Origin: a virus
Lineage: Duplodnaviria > Caudoviricetes
Reading direction: 5' to 3' (one strand)
IMG/VR virus record: IMGVR_UViG_3300048549_001527
DNA: 64,000 bases
The notes under the pieces: model-generated
Database searches by the model: none
The model's input: only the letters and a program-made list of their open reading frames with translations
What the model was told of the DNA's origin: nothing
Shown: positions 29,076 through 32,772 of the stretch, piece after piece
Layout of the letters: each line of letters opens with the position of its first letter
Position numbering within the stretch: the stretch's first letter is position 1
Translations under genes and position numbers: made by a program

Positions 29076-29076
29076 A

Positions 29077-29412
29077 ATGTTAAAATACATTACTTTAGGA
29101 CTACTTGCTGCGAGCTCTGCTGTGGCACAAGAACAAGGTGATATCACACGACATCCTTGTGGATCGTTTGAAGAAGCTGGAGCAATTTTAAAATCAACAG
29201 GGCAAGATATGCTTTGGAAAGGCCGCGGCACAACATTCCATATTAGCGGTGAGCAACAAACACCTGAAGTGGTATTCCATGTTAATCAGAAAACCGGTGC
29301 ATGGAGTTTAGTATCGTTATATCCAGGAAACATAGCTTGTTTAGTAATGGCGGGATGGGGGTTTGAGCCTTATTCAATTCCAACAAAAAAAATTGAAAAA
29401 AAATCCCCATAA
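29077..29412 (+). CDS. Secreted/periplasmic hypothetical protein
   Basis: Signal peptide MLKYITLGLLAASSAVA; GGAG RBS; two Cys. Confidence 0.7.
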   Translation: MLKYITLGLLAASSAVAQEQGDITRHPCGSFEEAGAILKSTGQDMLWKGRGTTFHISGEQQTPEVVFHVNQKTGAWSLVSLYPGNIACLVMAGWGFEPYSIPTKKIEKKSP

Positions 29413-29508: not shown

Positions 29509-29964
29509 ACTAGAACTAAATTTAATGCGGCAGCGCTAAACGATCCATTGTTTATCGGATTTGACAGAATGTTAGAAAGAATGAATTCTGTTGATACAGT
29601 GCATCGCAACACGTCCAATTATCCCCCATATAATATTGTAAAAGTAGACGAAGATAATTTTACTATAGAACTGGCATTAGCTGGTTTTAAAGATGAAGAT
29701 ATTGACGTTACACTAAAAGATGGAGTATTATATGTTGAAGGTAACCAAGGTGATAACGATGAAAAAACATATTTGCATCGTGGGCTATCGGCTCGTTCCT
29801 TCCGTAGATCTTTTACAATAGCTGATACCATTGTTGTTAATGGAGCAGATTTTGTAAATGGCATTCTAACCATTTCGTTAGAAAATGTAATTCCTGAAGA
29901 AAAGAAACCTCGAAAGATTGCTATCAACAACGGAAATCATAAGGCTGAACTTCTCAACGGGTAA
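29506..29964 (+). CDS. hsp20: Small heat-shock protein Hsp20 (IbpA-like)
   Basis: FIGFDRM, NYPPYNI, ELALAGF, YLHRGLS.RSF.RSF, NGILTI.LE..IPEEKKPRKI. Confidence 0.95.
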   Translation: MTRTKFNAAALNDPLFIGFDRMLERMNSVDTVHRNTSNYPPYNIVKVDEDNFTIELALAGFKDEDIDVTLKDGVLYVEGNQGDNDEKTYLHRGLSARSFRRSFTIADTIVVNGADFVNGILTISLENVIPEEKKPRKIAINNGNHKAELLNG

Positions 29965-29970
29965 GTACTA

Positions 29971-29998
29971 TTGACAAAATAATAAACTATGTTATATT
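29971..29998 (+). promoter_or_regulatory. Sigma70-type promoter
   Basis: TTGACA-16nt-TATATT with extended TG. Confidence 0.7.
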
Positions 29999-30011
29999 GA
30001 TTCTAATAACG

Positions 30012-30035: not shown

Positions 30036-30058
30036 TTTTAACACACACGGAGAGTAAT

Positions 30059-30418
30059 ATGAAAAAGGTAAAACCCATTGGATGGGCAACCACATTGACT
30101 GAAATTGCAAGTATTCCTAAAGATATGTGGGATAGCGTAATGACAGTAGAAAAATCCCCACTACAAAATTTAGACCCTATGGTAGGACACATGATCTTTC
30201 AGTGTCTATTCTTTATTTGGTCTGGTATTTTTGCATTAATGGTAGGAAGTTATTTGGCATTTGGAATTAGTGCTGCGTTTCACCTATTGCTTATTAGCGG
30301 TATTACAATTACAGTTGTGACATTTCGTCAAGCAGAAAACAATCCCGAGTCTCTTAACAATCTTTTAAAATCAGGTCGTAAATATAATGGCCGTGCAAAT
30401 GGTGGTGAGCATGAGTGA
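30059..30418 (+). CDS. Membrane hypothetical protein
   Basis: Two hydrophobic helices; GGAG RBS. Confidence 0.75.
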   Translation: MKKVKPIGWATTLTEIASIPKDMWDSVMTVEKSPLQNLDPMVGHMIFQCLFFIWSGIFALMVGSYLAFGISAAFHLLLISGITITVVTFRQAENNPESLNNLLKSGRKYNGRANGGEHE

Positions 30419-30569
30419 GCAAACACAATATTGCACAACCAAAGGCTTAGGCTGGGCATTCTTGATTATTATTATTATGATGGTAGGTTTACCTATTCTT
30501 GGTTCAGCAATTGCTTACCCAGATAATTGTAAGCAATCTATTCTTATTCCGTGTATAGGTTTAGAGTAA
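30411..30569 (+). CDS. Small single-TM protein
   Basis: GLGWAFLIIIIMMVGLPILG; two Cys in the C-terminal tail. Confidence 0.65.
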   Translation: MSEQTQYCTTKGLGWAFLIIIIMMVGLPILGSAIAYPDNCKQSILIPCIGLE

Positions 30570-30748
30570 TGCATATTGTTAGAAAAAAATCTGGTGAAAT
30601 AATTGCAATCGCATCACGTTTAGAAGATGCGATTTCAATTGCAGATGGTGCAAAAGTTGATAAAGAAGATTATGTTGTTCAAGAGTCAACTGACCAACAA
30701 GAACTCGCAGAAGTTTATCGTTCTTATTATGGGACAAGATCACTATGA
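30569..30748 (+). CDS. Small hypothetical protein
   Basis: TAATG-coupled ORF. Confidence 0.6.
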   Translation: MHIVRKKSGEIIAIASRLEDAISIADGAKVDKEDYVVQESTDQQELAEVYRSYYGTRSL

Positions 30749-30951
30749 CTGATGATGAAGTACGTGCAGCCGCTCAGAAAGAAGCGGAAAAAACCTTTGA
30801 TGGCTTCATCTTATGGTCTAAACGAACTACCTATGCTTCGATTGCATTTTTATTGATTGTAGCATCGTGTAACTTTGGGGTAGAGGACGACACCTATCCT
30901 GCCTATAATGGCGAACAATATAATCCGTCCAATCTTAATGTAAAGAAATAA
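30745..30951 (+). CDS. aa3-type cytochrome c oxidase subunit IV-like membrane peptide
   Basis: EAEKTFDGFILW followed by a TM helix, matching the E.TF.GF..W pattern of alphaproteobacterial CtaH/CoxIV. Confidence 0.55.
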   Translation: MTDDEVRAAAQKEAEKTFDGFILWSKRTTYASIAFLLIVASCNFGVEDDTYPAYNGEQYNPSNLNVKK

Positions 30952-30966
30952 AGATAGGAAACAAAT

Positions 30967-31395
30967 ATGAAAAATTTAATTACCGCTAGTATTATGGCGC
31001 TTTTTGCAACAACGGCATATGCTGAAGATATGACTGTTGAAATGTTGAACAAACGTGATGATGGCGCTAAGATGGTATATAGTGAAGATATCGCACGTAT
31101 TGACGTAGGTGATACAATCACATGGGTACCAACATCAAAAGGTCACAATGTAGAATTTATTGCGGGCCCAGACGGATGGAAAGCACCAAAGAAATCAAAA
31201 CTTAACAAAGAAGTGGCGATTACATTTGATACACCAGGCGTATATCTATATCAGTGTTCGCCACACAAAACAATGGGCATGATTGCCATTGTGGTTGTAG
31301 GTAAGCCAGAAGGTGAAGCTAAAGATCGTTTGAAAGATGTCAAAGTAAAAGGCAAGTCAAAGAAGAAGTTCAAAGAGTTACTGGCTGATCTATAA
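30967..31395 (+). CDS. Pseudoazurin (periplasmic type-1 copper protein)
   Basis: Signal peptide; VEMLNK..DG.KMV; GHNVEF; Y.Y.CSPH..MGM (His, Cys, His, Met ligands). Confidence 0.92.
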   Translation: MKNLITASIMALFATTAYAEDMTVEMLNKRDDGAKMVYSEDIARIDVGDTITWVPTSKGHNVEFIAGPDGWKAPKKSKLNKEVAITFDTPGVYLYQCSPHKTMGMIAIVVVGKPEGEAKDRLKDVKVKGKSKKKFKELLADL

Positions 31396-31685
31396 TGTGT
31401 CCAGCATGTTACATTAACGGACTTCTGTTGCTTATATTTGGAGCAACAGGGGCGCAATTAGCCAGCAACCCTTGGATTATTGCACTCAGTACAGTGCTTA
31501 CTATTGGCGGCTTTTGGTGGATGTGGCGAGCATACAAACGCAGCAAAGGCAAAGGCGGACTAAAAAAGAATCTTAAGATTACGGCTTTGGTTTTATTTGC
31601 ATTTGCGGCAGGCTATGTTACGGCAGCATATCAAACACATGAGTATTGGCAAGAAGCATATGGTGCTGAGGATCATTTAGAATGA
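31395..31685 (+). CDS. Membrane protein with N-terminal MCPAC motif
   Basis: CxxC followed by three hydrophobic segments. Confidence 0.7.
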   Translation: MCPACYINGLLLLIFGATGAQLASNPWIIALSTVLTIGGFWWMWRAYKRSKGKGGLKKNLKITALVLFAFAAGYVTAAYQTHEYWQEAYGAEDHLE

Positions 31686-31695
31686 GCAAGCCGAA

Positions 31696-32097
31696 ATGAA
31701 AAGTTTAGTTGATAAAATACCAGAGTTTTGTATGAGCCATTGGTTACTTCGTATTCCATTGGCCATCGTATTCCTTCAACAGGGCCTTGATAAATGGCCC
31801 GTTGATGCTGGAACAGCAGAGTCCTTTGCACTACCACTAATTGTTTGGGTCTTTGTTGTTTATGGTGAAATTGGTTCAGGAGTCGGATTACTCGTTGGCG
31901 GAGTACTTGCCAATTGGTTTAAAGAATTGGGCGATCTAACTACGCGGTTTAGTGGTATTACAATCTGTAGTATTATGACAGGCGTTATTTGGATCGGCGA
32001 ACCTGAAAGCTTTATGGATGTAATTCTATATGATAACTTTCATGTTTTATTATGGGTAGGTGGAATGTTTTTTGCACTAAGAGGTAATAGAACGTAA
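31696..32097 (+). CDS. DoxX-family membrane protein
   Basis: LLRIPLAIVFLQQGLDK, GEIGSGVGLLVGG, four TM segments. Confidence 0.75.
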   Translation: MKSLVDKIPEFCMSHWLLRIPLAIVFLQQGLDKWPVDAGTAESFALPLIVWVFVVYGEIGSGVGLLVGGVLANWFKELGDLTTRFSGITICSIMTGVIWIGEPESFMDVILYDNFHVLLWVGGMFFALRGNRT

Positions 32098-32291
32098 TGG
32101 TAAAACCTAATACCAGTTTCAACTTAGATGTTGATGATATAAATATGATTGATGAAGCGTTGATTGTATTACAACATCAGCGTACCGGCGTTGTAGGATT
32201 TGAAATAGAAGCTATTACAAATCTTAGAGCCAAAATTTTTCATCAAAAGAATTGGTATAAACCAAAGGACCGCTTCGCAGGAGGCGGATAA
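32097..32291 (+). CDS. Small hypothetical protein
   Basis: 64 aa coupled ORF. Confidence 0.65.
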   Translation: MVKPNTSFNLDVDDINMIDEALIVLQHQRTGVVGFEIEAITNLRAKIFHQKNWYKPKDRFAGGG

Positions 32292-32313
32292 CACAACACA
32301 CAGGAGAACAAAA

Positions 32314-32523
32314 ATGTTTAACGACTTTACAACTAACTACTTTATCGACCATATTCAATCTACAAAGAAAACAATGGTTGATACATTGGTAAAAGACGAA
32401 AAATTGTCTGCGCCACTACATGCTTTTATTGAAGCGCAAACATCTTTTACTAAAGTGGCAATGAAATCTATGACTGATTTTATGAATGCATCTGGTGAAA
32501 CCGCAGCAAAGGTAATGAAATAA
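32314..32523 (+). CDS. Small helical hypothetical protein
   Basis: AGGAG RBS; amphipathic helices. Confidence 0.75.
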   Translation: MFNDFTTNYFIDHIQSTKKTMVDTLVKDEKLSAPLHAFIEAQTSFTKVAMKSMTDFMNASGETAAKVMK

Positions 32524-32741
32524 TGAGTAAAAACCCTTTTGAAATTCGTGCAGATATGTTGCAGATGGCTAAAGAGTATATGGATCAAATCCATGAAACT
32601 AACCATATCTATGCAGCCAAAATGATGGAATTAGGTCAAATTCAATTTGAAGAATATCAAAAGATGACTGAACTATATTCAGTCGAGGAGCTCACGAAAA
32701 AAGCTACAGAAATGTATTCGTTTGTTTCAAATAAAGATTAA
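32523..32741 (+). CDS. Small hypothetical protein
   Basis: MSKNPFEIRADMLQMAKEY; coupled; followed by a terminator. Confidence 0.75.
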   Translation: MSKNPFEIRADMLQMAKEYMDQIHETNHIYAAKMMELGQIQFEEYQKMTELYSVEELTKKATEMYSFVSNKD

Positions 32742-32743
32742 GG

Positions 32744-32772
32744 AAAAGGGGATCTTCGGGTCCCCTTTTTTT
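32744..32772. terminator. Bidirectional intrinsic terminator with cUUCGg tetraloop
   Basis: AAAA-GGGGATC-TTCG-GGTCCCC-TTTTTTT between convergent genes. Confidence 0.9.

What the first reader, a model, noticed from the sequence alone, without database searches (positions are those of the whole stretch)
30059..32097. Periplasmic and membrane redox cassette: pseudoazurin, CoxIV-like peptide, CxxC membrane protein, DoxX
Seen: a co-transcribed run of envelope proteins including a pseudoazurin with signal peptide and all four Cu ligands. Known: pseudoazurin carries electrons to nitrite and N2O reductases and takes part in sulfite oxidation in alphaproteobacteria; CoxIV is an accessory subunit of aa3 oxidase; DoxX relates to thiosulfate:quinone oxidoreductase subunits. 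Inference: a respiratory counterpart of the cyanophage petE/psbA strategy that maintains or reroutes host electron flow during infection.
Basis: partly seen in the sequence, partly recalled or inferred. Interest (0 to 1): 0.72.

Follow-up and report, generated by a model that had tools for sequence, protein, structure and literature searches.

The report
Phage pseudoazurin–DoxX–oxidase-subunit envelope operon
An uncultured marine T4-like phage carries an early operon that sends a copper electron carrier (pseudoazurin), a cytochrome-oxidase subunit IV look-alike, a DoxX membrane protein and other small membrane proteins into its host's envelope, probably to keep respiration running during infection. 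The same set recurs in hundreds of ocean phage contigs, and I found no paper describing it.

Summary
Window 30059-32097 (+) holds tightly coupled genes for:
- a 2-TM protein (mem119)
- a 52-aa Cys-bearing TM peptide
- a 59-aa soluble protein
- a COX4_pro_2-like peptide
- an exported pseudoazurin with all four type-1 Cu ligands
- a CxxC membrane protein
- a DoxX protein

The unit is larger than reported. It runs from a near-consensus sigma70-type promoter (29971-29998) to a bidirectional terminator (32744-32769).

All conserved genes are under purifying selection (dN/dS about 0.1). Pseudoazurin relatives are in at least 328 IMG/VR contigs. They usually sit beside DoxX and the subunit IV-like gene, in many shuffled orders. 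Viral pseudoazurins form one clade, sister to pelagic Rhodobacterales. In cells the three genes are never adjacent, so the phages assembled the set themselves.

The respiratory-support reading is plausible but inferred. No NirK-type or COX2 gene was found in the related phage records searched, and no NirK-type gene in five pseudoazurin-bearing alphaproteobacterial genomes. An aa3 oxidase was found in the three of those genomes that were searched for it.

The subunit IV-like protein differs from cellular ones: it has a lipobox-like Cys and an extra, highly conserved 27-residue periplasmic tail. The CxxC gene is a rare, recently mobile add-on.

First-stage notes of this scan flag the same cassette in several other phage genomes. 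No paper describing it was found.

The parts
29971..29998 (+). Sigma70-type early promoter: TTGACA, 16 nt, TG-extended TATATT. A GATTC site (29999-30003) directly follows it.
   Evidence: 11 of 12 consensus matches with an extended -10. Sequence read. The same promoter plus GATTC is conserved upstream of the mem119 gene in close relatives. Activity is inferred.
30059..30418 (+). mem119: 119-aa membrane protein with a hairpin of two TM helices. H44, H75 and the C-terminal GGEH motif are invariant. Function unknown.
   Evidence: RBS GGAGAG at 30049-30054. dN/dS 0.10. Alignment A5. 464 clusters at 50% identity match its profile, all unnamed. One cellular homologue sits beside DUF3429, an amine-oxidase-like gene, a photolyase and DUF2237. 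No Pfam, PHROG or NCBIfam hit.
30411..30569 (+). 52-aa single-TM peptide with three conserved Cys (YCTTKGLG ... C ... PC). Its start overlaps the end of mem119.
   Evidence: Alignment shows conservation beginning at MSEQT. dN/dS 0.11. Almost always follows mem119 in relatives.
30569..30748 (+). 59-aa soluble protein of unknown function, start-stop coupled on both sides.
   Evidence: Alignment. dN/dS 0.12. No family hit.
30745..30951 (+). aa3 oxidase subunit IV-like protein (COX4_pro_2 homologue): N-terminal motif plus TM helix, then a near-invariant (at least 90%) Cys in a lipobox-like context, then a conserved 27-aa acidic/aromatic periplasmic tail.
   Evidence: PF07835 26.1 bits. 23/32 relatives hit it. 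hhalign 95% against cellular COX4 peptides. Lipobox-like [VA][AVG][SGA]C in 107/120 relatives. dN/dS 0.12.
30967..31395 (+). Pseudoazurin precursor: Sec signal peptide (cleavage after AYA, residue 19), ligands H60/C97/H100/M105, Lys ring K29/K58/K76/K78, C-terminal helices.
   Evidence: dN/dS 0.15. Relatives in 328 IMG/VR contigs. Viral clade sister to Rhodobacterales.
31395..31685 (+). 96-aa CxxC membrane protein (N-terminal CPAC, about 3 TM, His/Glu-rich C-terminus). A rare insert between the pseudoazurin and DoxX genes.
   Evidence: ORF. Found only at 100% identity, including in one contig whose neighbouring pseudoazurin is 78% identical. Feature search points only to viral clusters and a weak MerT lead, score 0.77.
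31696..32097 (+). DoxX-family four-helix membrane protein.
   Evidence: PF07681 29.5 bits. AF2 pLDDT 89.9, pTM 0.80. Foldseek hits: CatD, Rv3486, MhqP, YphA, YqjF; weaker hits to MauE, SldB and DoxD. Directly follows the pseudoazurin gene in 92 loci. dN/dS 0.11.
32097..32741 (+). Three further small soluble ORFs (64, 69 and 72 aa) that complete the operon. Functions unknown.
   Evidence: No Pfam hits. The 64-aa gene accompanies the cassette in many relatives. A TATAAATA late-type motif lies at 32138.
32744..32769 (.). G+C-rich hairpin flanked by A and T runs: a probable bidirectional terminator between this operon and the convergent 663-aa minus-strand gene.
   Evidence: 9-bp stem, 4 GC pairs. 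Function is inferred.

Best explanation
This is an early-expressed auxiliary operon of an uncultured marine T4-like myovirus whose host is probably an alphaproteobacterium. It loads the host cell envelope with phage-made redox parts.

The core has two sub-modules that travel together but shuffle in order:
1. An exported, fully equipped pseudoazurin, immediately followed by a DoxX-family quinone-pool-type membrane protein.
2. Three small membrane proteins: mem119, a 52-aa Cys peptide, and a homologue of aa3 cytochrome c oxidase subunit IV carrying an extra conserved periplasmic tail.

Most likely mechanism: the phage pseudoazurin acts as a soluble periplasmic electron carrier, supplementing or replacing host carriers. 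It delivers electrons to the host's aa3 oxidase, on which the subunit IV-like protein sits. DoxX couples the carrier to the membrane quinone pool. Together they keep proton-motive force and ATP supply up while host gene expression is shut down.

Shown:
- the gene identities
- the intact Cu site and export signal
- purifying selection
- wide recurrence and linkage in phages
- separate locations of the three genes in cells

Inferred:
- early transcription
- copper loading
- the partners (aa3 oxidase, quinone)
- the direction of electron flow
For: - Family assignments.
- All conserved genes have dN/dS of 0.10-0.15 against diverged relatives.
- Relatives are found in 328 (pseudoazurin), 153 (subunit IV-like) and 59 (DoxX) IMG/VR contigs.
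- Linkage among loci with at least 1.5 kb on both flanks: pseudoazurin to DoxX 40/55, pseudoazurin to subunit IV-like 37/55, subunit IV-like to pseudoazurin 43/58.
- Many different gene orders keep the same set together. The pseudoazurin-DoxX pair is adjacent in 92 loci, and in L067/L068 it sits at a different genomic site, next to the clamp loader.
- In 80 cellular loci the pseudoazurin stands alone among housekeeping genes. Phages therefore assembled the combination.
- A near-consensus sigma70 promoter, tight coupling and a terminator frame the unit.
- No phage-borne acceptor was found: no NirK-type or COX2 gene over cut-off in five related records, one of them 86% complete.
- Among pseudoazurin-bearing alphaproteobacterial genomes, no NirK-type gene was found in the five searched and a cytochrome c peroxidase in only one of five. 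The three searched for COX1 each gave one hit. COX4_pro_2 was found in three of the five searched for it, and COX3 in G003 and G004.
- The docking lysines K29, K58, K76 and K78 are invariant. Their role is from the pseudoazurin literature, recalled from my own knowledge.
- Foldseek relatives of DoxX include membrane subunits that tie periplasmic redox proteins to quinone, namely SldB and DoxD, and MauE of the amicyanin-containing mau cluster. These matches are weak and count as leads only.
- Precedent: phage ALA synthase has been proposed to sustain respiratory haem enzymes (PMC11480375).
Against: - There is no expression, copper-binding or activity data.
- The host is unknown.
- No biochemical activity is established for stand-alone DoxX proteins (own knowledge; the Swiss-Prot relatives are named 'putative' or 'uncharacterized'). 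Pfam covers only residues 17-68.
- From my own recollection, deleting subunit IV of Paracoccus aa3 has no known functional consequence. It is therefore unclear what a mimic would achieve.
- The phage version has a lipobox-like Cys. If it is processed, the COX4-like helix would be removed as a signal peptide.
- Each of the three genes also occurs without the others in a quarter to a half of adequately flanked loci. The region is a typical hyperplastic accessory island, so linkage may partly reflect location.
- Linkage counts include many near-duplicate contigs.
- Known pseudoazurin partners are nitrite, N2O and NO reductases and cytochrome c peroxidase, not aa3 oxidase (own knowledge).
Confidence: 0.5

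Rival explanations
1. The cassette is an envelope stress-protection or copper-handling module rather than a respiratory aid. Pseudoazurin would serve as an electron source for periplasmic detoxification, or as a copper buffer. DoxX would act in quinone/thiol stress, as proposed for MhqP, CatD and mycobacterial DoxX. mem119 and the CxxC protein would handle metal or oxidative damage.
For: - A cellular mem119 homologue lies in a photolyase / DUF3429 / amine-oxidase-like / DUF2237 cluster of the kind linked to photo-oxidative stress, and DUF2237 also neighbours the cellular pseudoazurin in G003.
- The closest Swiss-Prot fold relatives of DoxX are stress-linked CatD and MhqP.
- mem119 has invariant His/Met residues and the CxxC protein has a weak MerT-like lead.
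- An Hsp20 gene lies directly upstream.
- From my own knowledge, pseudoazurin donates to cytochrome c peroxidase in Paracoccus. A CCP gene is present in the Rhodobacteraceae genome G002.
Against: - CCP was not found in the four streamlined genomes searched.
- The subunit IV-like gene points to the oxidase.
- Pseudoazurin is not known as a copper store.
- The stress links are by neighbourhood or by weak structural likeness only.
Confidence: 0.2
2. There is no joint function. Unrelated accessory genes have accumulated in one hyperplastic island of T4-like genomes. The pseudoazurin alone is a host-derived carrier gene. The 'subunit IV-like' gene encodes a small early lipoprotein, for example for superinfection exclusion or receptor masking, whose signal peptide merely resembles COX4.
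For: - The lipobox-like motif with its Cys is present in 107/120 relatives, and the tail after it is the most conserved part.
- The hydrophobic stretch before the Cys is short, about 17 residues.
- Each gene occurs without the others in a sizeable share of loci, and orders vary freely.
- Early expression fits exclusion functions.
Against: - The cytoplasmic N-region is conserved (A10, A14, F21 and K26 invariant). That is not expected of a disposable signal peptide.
- The N-region and helix match cellular COX4 profiles at 95% probability.
- The pseudoazurin-DoxX pair moves as a unit to another site.
- A divergent, probably jumbo phage contig (L091) also combines pseudoazurin with mem119.
Confidence: 0.18
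3. The pseudoazurin supports denitrification-type enzymes (NirK, NosZ, NorB) of hosts living at low oxygen, which is the classical pseudoazurin role.
For: - The classical partners of pseudoazurin are nitrite and N2O reductases (cited in PMC12816887).
- That paper reports a pseudoazurin inside a nirK-cbb3 island of SAR11 genomes from an upwelling system.
Against: - No Cu-oxidase_3 gene was found in five related phage records or in five pseudoazurin-bearing genomes.
- The cassette is linked to an aa3 subunit homologue.
- The cellular relatives found are marine lineages that I take to be mostly aerobic surface dwellers (own knowledge).
- NirS and NosZ were not searched.
Confidence: 0.08

Closest known systems
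Cyanophage plastocyanin PetE (phrog_515) and other cyanophage electron-transport auxiliary genes (PetF, PTOX, PsbA)
   Same: A T4-like marine phage carries a host-type soluble type-1 copper electron carrier with a signal peptide. The gene hits phrog_515 at E 8e-8. The logic is the same: sustain host energy conversion during infection.
   Different: - The protein is a pseudoazurin, not a plastocyanin: TIGR02375 109 bits against plastocyanin 35 bits.
- Its cellular relatives are heterotrophic Alphaproteobacteria.
- It comes with DoxX and an oxidase subunit IV homologue, which are not among the cyanophage electron-transport genes I know of (own knowledge).
- tblastn found no counterpart in 50,697 deposited phage genomes.
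Bacterial pseudoazurins (S. meliloti 3TU6; Achromobacter cycloclastes 1BQK; Paracoccus 1ADW)
   Same: About 50% identity over the whole mature protein. Same His-Cys-His-Met ligand set and spacing, same lysine ring and same C-terminal helical extension.
   Different: - It is phage-encoded.
- The viral copies form one clade, separate from the cellular ones.
- It scores 0.55 bit under NCBI's equivalog cut-off.
- The physiological partner is unknown.
Subunit IV (CtaH, Pfam COX4_pro_2) of alphaproteobacterial aa3 cytochrome c oxidase
   Same: It shares the N-terminal K-T-[FYW]-x-G-F motif followed by one TM helix. It scores above the Pfam cut-off and gives a 95% profile-profile match.
   Different: - All but one of the 32 cellular peptides examined are 36-50 residues and all end at the helix.
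- The phage protein is 68 residues. It has a near-invariant Cys in a lipobox-like context and a highly conserved 27-residue periplasmic tail.
- Binding to an oxidase was not tested.
DoxX family (B. subtilis CatD/MhqP, E. coli YphA/YqjF, M. tuberculosis DoxX) and clan relatives DoxD (thiosulfate:quinone oxidoreductase), MauE, SldB
   Same: Pfam DoxX above cut-off, and a four-helix fold with TM 0.71 to CatD. Like MauE in the mau cluster with amicyanin (own knowledge), it is encoded beside a cupredoxin.
   Different: - There is no DoxA partner, so it is not a DoxDA-type enzyme.
- QQG replaces the usual HG motif (the usual motif is from my own knowledge).
- Close cellular homologues (58-63% identity) were found in only three small low-GC alphaproteobacterial genomes out of about 300 sampled.
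Phage 5-aminolevulinate synthase (vAlaS) as a respiration-supporting auxiliary gene (PMC11480375)
   Same: It is an auxiliary gene of aquatic phages, with its closest cellular relatives in Alphaproteobacteria. It has been proposed to keep respiratory enzymes such as cytochrome c oxidase working. An earlier first-stage note says this same genome carries ALAS; I did not check that.
   Different: It supplies a cofactor precursor, not an electron carrier or an oxidase subunit. It is cytoplasmic, not in the envelope.

Membership tests
Pseudoazurin (TIGR02375; cupredoxin PF00127) | Curated family model matched over the full length | tested here: inconclusive
   PF00127 58.8 bits, well over the cut-off of 21.2. 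TIGR02375 109.3 bits over positions 1-115 of 116, but the curated cut-off is 109.85, so it falls 0.55 bit short. The next families score far lower: amicyanin 47.9, plastocyanin 35.2.
Pseudoazurin (TIGR02375; cupredoxin PF00127) | Type-1 copper ligands His ... Cys-x2-His-x4-Met | tested here: met
   H60, C97, H100 and M105 are invariant in 15 viral copies of 70-100% identity. They align with the ligands of 3TU6 and 1BQK.
Pseudoazurin (TIGR02375; cupredoxin PF00127) | C-terminal alpha-helical extension that distinguishes pseudoazurin from plastocyanin and amicyanin | tested here: met
   The alignment to 3TU6 runs to query residue 141 of 142, chain residue 122 of 127. This was shown by sequence alignment only; the protein was not folded here.
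Pseudoazurin (TIGR02375; cupredoxin PF00127) | Export to the periplasm | tested here: met
   The N-terminal 19 residues have a basic start, a hydrophobic core and an AYA cleavage motif. This is read directly from the sequence. No signal-peptide predictor was available.
Pseudoazurin (TIGR02375; cupredoxin PF00127) | Binds Cu and transfers electrons (blue spectrum, Em about +250 mV) | not testable with these tools
   Needs recombinant protein, UV-vis and EPR spectroscopy, and electrochemistry.
aa3 cytochrome c oxidase subunit IV (COX4_pro_2, PF07835) | Sequence model matched above the curated cut-off, consistently across relatives | tested here: met
   26.1 bits against a cut-off of 22. 23 of 32 diverse relatives match and no other family does. 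hhalign of the phage family against 32 cellular peptides gives 95% probability, E 3.8e-8, over 28 columns.
aa3 cytochrome c oxidase subunit IV (COX4_pro_2, PF07835) | Architecture: a peptide of about 40-50 residues that ends with its single TM helix | tested here: not met
   All but one of the 32 cellular peptides are 36-50 residues (one is 62), and none has a tail. The phage protein has 68 residues, with a Cys and a conserved 27-residue tail after the helix.
aa3 cytochrome c oxidase subunit IV (COX4_pro_2, PF07835) | Physical subunit of the aa3 oxidase, contacting subunits I and III | not testable with these tools
   The one complex-prediction job (COX1 and COX3 of genome G003 plus the phage protein) was not folded by the tool. 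Co-purification or cryo-EM is needed.
DoxX (PF07681) | Sequence model above the curated cut-off | tested here: met
   29.5 bits against a cut-off of 23.6, covering residues 17-68. Most of 120 relatives carry the precomputed PF07681 hit.
DoxX (PF07681) | Four-helix membrane fold of the family | tested here: met
   AF2 model with pLDDT 89.9 and pTM 0.80 has four long helices. Best Swiss-Prot fold matches are CatD (TM 0.71), HI_1602, YqjF, MhqP and YphA. No solved structure matched.
Thiosulfate:quinone oxidoreductase DoxDA | DoxD-type subunit together with a DoxA subunit | tested here: not met
   No cassette ORF hits a DoxA model. DoxD of Acidianus is only a weak fold match: TM 0.56, E 1.6.
Bacterial lipoprotein (alternative filing of the subunit IV-like gene) | Lipobox [LVI][ASTVI][GAS]C at the end of a hydrophobic signal segment preceded by basic residues | tested here: inconclusive
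   A lipobox-like motif is present in 107 of 120 relatives (VASC, VVGC and others) after a WSKR-type basic site. However, the n-region is 27 residues long and conserved. Processing cannot be tested here.

The most novel reading that the evidence does not exclude
The phages install a complete bypass of complex III and cytochrome c that needs no haem or iron-sulfur cofactor of its own. DoxX oxidises ubiquinol and reduces the phage pseudoazurin. The pseudoazurin is guided to the host aa3 oxidase by the conserved acidic/aromatic periplasmic tail of the phage's subunit IV mimic, which has taken the native subunit's place. mem119 and the Cys peptide complete this membrane complex. Such a shunt would let an infected, iron-starved ocean bacterium keep respiring without making new cytochromes.
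Probability: 0.12. Interest if true: 0.85.

Novelty: new variant of a known kind. Interest (0 to 1): 0.62.

Why it matters
Phage auxiliary genes for photosynthetic electron transport are textbook material. Equivalents for the respiratory chain of heterotrophic marine bacteria are far less documented. This cassette is abundant in ocean viromes, has been assembled by phages from genes that are unlinked in cells, and includes a modified oxidase subunit.

If it acts on respiration, it gives:
- a direct handle on how phages control the energy budget of abundant marine Alphaproteobacteria
- a first functional clue for two poorly understood protein families, DoxX and bacterial subunit IV
- a possible copper-for-iron substitution strategy relevant to ocean trace-metal ecology

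If it is only a set of co-located envelope genes, the exported pseudoazurin is still a new and widespread phage auxiliary gene.

Tried and rejected
- **Deposited phage genomes.** blastn of the region and tblastn of the pseudoazurin against 50,697 records found no match. The clamp loader is at most 55% identical to any isolate.
- **Own genome.** No whole genome is held for this window.
- **Complex prediction.** The tool did not fold them because the oxidase chains resemble eukaryotic proteins. The job was counted and gives no verdict. I did not try another route.
- **mem119 model.** pTM 0.35, essentially a helical hairpin. It was too simple for a fold search, so none was run.
- **Solved structures.** Sequence searches for the subunit IV-like protein and for DoxX found nothing. 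A Foldseek PDB search for DoxX found nothing significant.
- **Cellular neighbourhoods** of the pseudoazurin and of the close DoxX homologues: ordinary housekeeping genes, no partner revealed.
- **Isoelectric point** of mature viral versus cellular pseudoazurins: no systematic shift.
- **Exhaustive profile search for mem119:** 464 clusters, all unnamed metagenomic proteins.
- **Literature.** No paper combines pseudoazurin with phage auxiliary genes. The pelagimyophage survey mentions no copper protein, cytochrome or DoxX. Cupredoxin auxiliary genes turned up only in papers on viruses associated with nitrifying communities.
- **Filing as plastocyanin or amicyanin** was rejected on score.
- **Filing as DoxDA** was rejected because there is no DoxA.
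- **L091 and L095,** binned as bacteria, were treated as probable phage contigs, not cellular evidence.
- **Genome G045** is unpublished.


Full report
**What the window is.** The 64-kb window has about 36% G+C and encodes T4-type replication and virion genes. Its clamp loader is at most 55% identical to any deposited phage, the nearest being Stenotrophomonas phage DLP_6 and the OM43 phage Melnitz. No whole genome is held for it. Neither the region nor its pseudoazurin has a counterpart among 50,697 deposited phage genomes. It is therefore an uncultured marine T4-like myovirus. The identical pseudoazurin protein has been seen on 22 contigs, the longest 210,865 bases.

**Anatomy.** The hsp20 gene ends at 29964. 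After it comes a near-consensus sigma70-type promoter: TTGACA, 16 nt, TG-extended TATATT, at 29971-29998, directly followed by GATTC. A GGAGAG ribosome-binding site follows, then the first ATG at 30059. From there ten ORFs run on the + strand with overlaps or gaps of at most 22 nt:
- mem119 (30059-30418)
- a 52-aa Cys peptide (most likely start 30411)
- a 59-aa soluble protein (most likely start 30569)
- the subunit IV-like gene (30745-30951)
- the pseudoazurin gene (30967-31395)
- the CxxC protein gene (31395-31685)
- the DoxX gene (31696-32097)
- three small ORFs ending at 32741

A G+C-rich hairpin flanked by A and T runs at 32744-32769 separates the unit from a convergent 663-aa gene. The same promoter with its GATTC is conserved in close relatives. 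Early co-transcription is thus well motivated, but it is inferred.

**The genes are real.** Against diverged homologues in other viral contigs, median dN/dS is 0.10-0.15 for mem119, the Cys peptide, the 59-aa protein, the subunit IV-like gene, the pseudoazurin and DoxX.

**Pseudoazurin.**
- It matches PF00127 at 58.8 bits.
- It matches NCBI's pseudoazurin equivalog over the full length at 109.3 bits. That is 0.55 bit below the curated cut-off but far above amicyanin and plastocyanin.
- It aligns at about 50% identity with S. meliloti pseudoazurin 3TU6 right through the C-terminal helices.
- H60, C97, H100 and M105, and the lysines K29, K58, K76 and K78, are invariant in 15 viral copies down to 70% identity.
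- A Sec-type signal peptide ending in AYA is evident in the sequence.

**Subunit IV-like protein.**
- It exceeds the Pfam cut-off for COX4_pro_2, as do 23 of 32 diverse relatives.
- I collected 32 COX4 peptides from alphaproteobacterial genomes. A profile-profile comparison with the phage family gave 95% probability.
- The architecture differs, however. Cellular peptides end with the helix, and all but one are 36-50 residues long. The phage protein continues with a near-invariant Cys in a lipobox-like context (107 of 120 relatives) and a 27-residue acidic/aromatic tail, the best conserved part of the protein.
- The cytoplasmic N-region is conserved too (A10, A14, F21, K26). This argues that it is more than a disposable signal peptide.
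- I keep both readings open: an uncleaved subunit IV mimic with a periplasmic tail, which I favour, and a small lipoprotein.

**DoxX.** It passes the Pfam cut-off. It folds confidently into four helices (pLDDT 89.9). It is closest to B. subtilis CatD (TM 0.71), HI_1602, YqjF, Rv3486, MhqP and YphA. Weaker likeness extends to MauE, the SldB dehydrogenase anchor and DoxD. There is no DoxA, so it is not a thiosulfate:quinone oxidoreductase of the DoxDA kind.

**Distribution and linkage.**
- IMG/VR holds 328 contigs with pseudoazurin relatives, 153 with the subunit IV-like gene and 59 with DoxX. These counts come from single-sequence patterns, so all are lower bounds.
- Among loci with at least 1.5 kb on both sides, pseudoazurin is accompanied by DoxX in 40/55 and by the subunit IV-like gene in 37/55. 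The subunit IV-like gene is accompanied by pseudoazurin in 43/58. DoxX is accompanied by the subunit IV-like gene in 25/37.
- These counts include near-duplicate contigs and are not independent.
- Gene order is highly variable, but two blocks persist. One is mem119, the Cys peptide, optionally the 59-aa protein, and the subunit IV-like gene. The other is pseudoazurin followed by DoxX, adjacent in 92 loci.
- In L067/L068 the DoxX-pseudoazurin pair sits at another site, next to the clamp loader.
- A divergent 335-kb phage-like contig, misbinned as Neomarinimicrobiota, also combines pseudoazurin with mem119.
- The CxxC gene is different. It occurs only as a 100% identical copy, even beside a pseudoazurin that is 78% identical. 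It is therefore a recent, mobile add-on.

**Origin.**
- All 80 best cellular relatives of the pseudoazurin are marine Alphaproteobacteria.
- In the tree, the viral proteins form one clade. This clade also holds L095, a 35.5% G+C contig that is probably misbinned phage DNA. It is sister to a clade of Rhodobacterales (Ascidiaceihabitans, Planktomarina), two Rhodospirillales and Hellea, with SH-aLRT 94.
- Cellular pseudoazurin genes stand alone among housekeeping genes.
- Close DoxX homologues (58-63%) were found only in three small genomes whose sampled loci have 26-29% G+C, out of about 300 alphaproteobacterial genomes sampled. Two of them (G003, G004) were also searched for COX4_pro_2, which lies next to their cox operon.
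- The three genes are thus unlinked in cells and were brought together in phages.
- The host remains open between pelagic roseobacters and streamlined low-GC Alphaproteobacteria.

**Which partner?**
- Five related phage records, one of them 86% complete, contain the pseudoazurin but no NirK-type gene and no COX2 gene above cut-off. The carrier must therefore serve host enzymes.
- Five pseudoazurin-bearing alphaproteobacterial genomes show no NirK-type gene, and a cytochrome c peroxidase in only one.
- The three of them searched for COX1 (G002-G004) each have one haem-copper oxidase hit.
- These genomes may be incomplete. NirS and NosZ were not searched.
- Together with the subunit IV homologue, this makes the aa3 oxidase the most economical acceptor. 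DoxX relatives that tether periplasmic redox proteins to quinone suggest a quinone link, but that step is speculative.
- A literature precedent for respiration-supporting phage genes exists in the phage ALA synthase (PMC11480375).
- A pseudoazurin in a SAR11 nirK-cbb3 island (PMC12816887) keeps the denitrification rival alive at low probability.

**What could not be done.** The single complex-prediction job was not folded by the tool, so there is no structural test of oxidase binding. mem119 remains without a function. Its profile finds 464 unnamed clusters. One cellular homologue lies in a photolyase / DUF3429 / DUF2237 cluster, which feeds the stress-protection rival.

**Novelty.** Searches of the paper library found no description of phage pseudoazurin, of a phage subunit IV homologue or of phage DoxX. 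First-stage notes of this scan flag the same cassette in several other phage genomes. That agrees with its wide distribution in IMG/VR but is not independent evidence of function. I class it as a new variant of a known kind: electron-transport auxiliary genes, here for respiration in heterotroph hosts and as a multi-gene envelope set.

Noticed in passing
L091:10001-14092 (PBPT01000016.1, 335-kb contig binned as Candidatus Neomarinimicrobiota): The contig looks like phage DNA: packed same-strand small ORFs, DNA ligase and tail-fibre PHROGs. It carries a pseudoazurin (57% identity) and a mem119 homologue (46%) 3.7 kb apart. Its pseudoazurin branches with low-GC alphaproteobacterial copies rather than inside the main viral clade, so it may be a second, independent acquisition by a jumbo-sized phage.
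   Followed up: partly
window 31395-31685; L263:5628-5915: The CxxC membrane protein is 100% identical at protein level in every contig that has it. That includes one where the adjacent pseudoazurin is only 78% identical and the gene order differs. It appears to be a recently spreading gene that lands directly downstream of the pseudoazurin gene.
   Followed up: partly
L400:6001-10011 and L085:10880-11269: A cellular homologue of mem119 sits in a cluster with DUF3429, an amine-oxidase-like gene, a DNA photolyase and DUF2237. DUF2237 is also the downstream neighbour of the cellular pseudoazurin in the low-GC genome G003. This may link the genes to light or oxidative stress.
   Followed up: no
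window 29076-29412: Just upstream of hsp20 lies another small gene whose product starts with a signal-peptide-like segment (LGLLAASSAVA) and has two Cys. It would be a further exported phage protein outside the reported cassette. No family hit.
   Followed up: no
L162/L163 (G003:C1:272757-273147): The DoxX homologue of the long-read MAG G003 is split over two frames (residues 5-71 and 73-132). This is either a frameshift or an assembly error.
   Followed up: no
L095 (FZLS01000020.1, 'Rhodobacteraceae Water_Bin34') and L132 ('Hellea sp.' 3.9-kb contig): L095 has 35.5% G+C, and its pseudoazurin nests inside the viral clade, so it is probably misbinned phage DNA. Taxon labels of short MAG contigs carrying this gene should be read with care. 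An NCBI 'Hellea sp.' pseudoazurin 87% identical to the window's is another such case (P0029).
   Followed up: partly
PMC12816887 (SAR11 nirK-cbb3 island): The paper lists the genes between nirK and ccoN as an unknown protein, a pseudoazurin, an Fe(II)/2OG oxygenase and an RNR beta subunit. That mix resembles typical T4-like phage accessory genes and may hint at phage-mediated origin of the island.
   Followed up: no
window 32138: A T4-type late promoter motif, TATAAATA, lies inside the 64-aa ORF ahead of the last two small genes. The tail of the operon may therefore also be read late.
   Followed up: no
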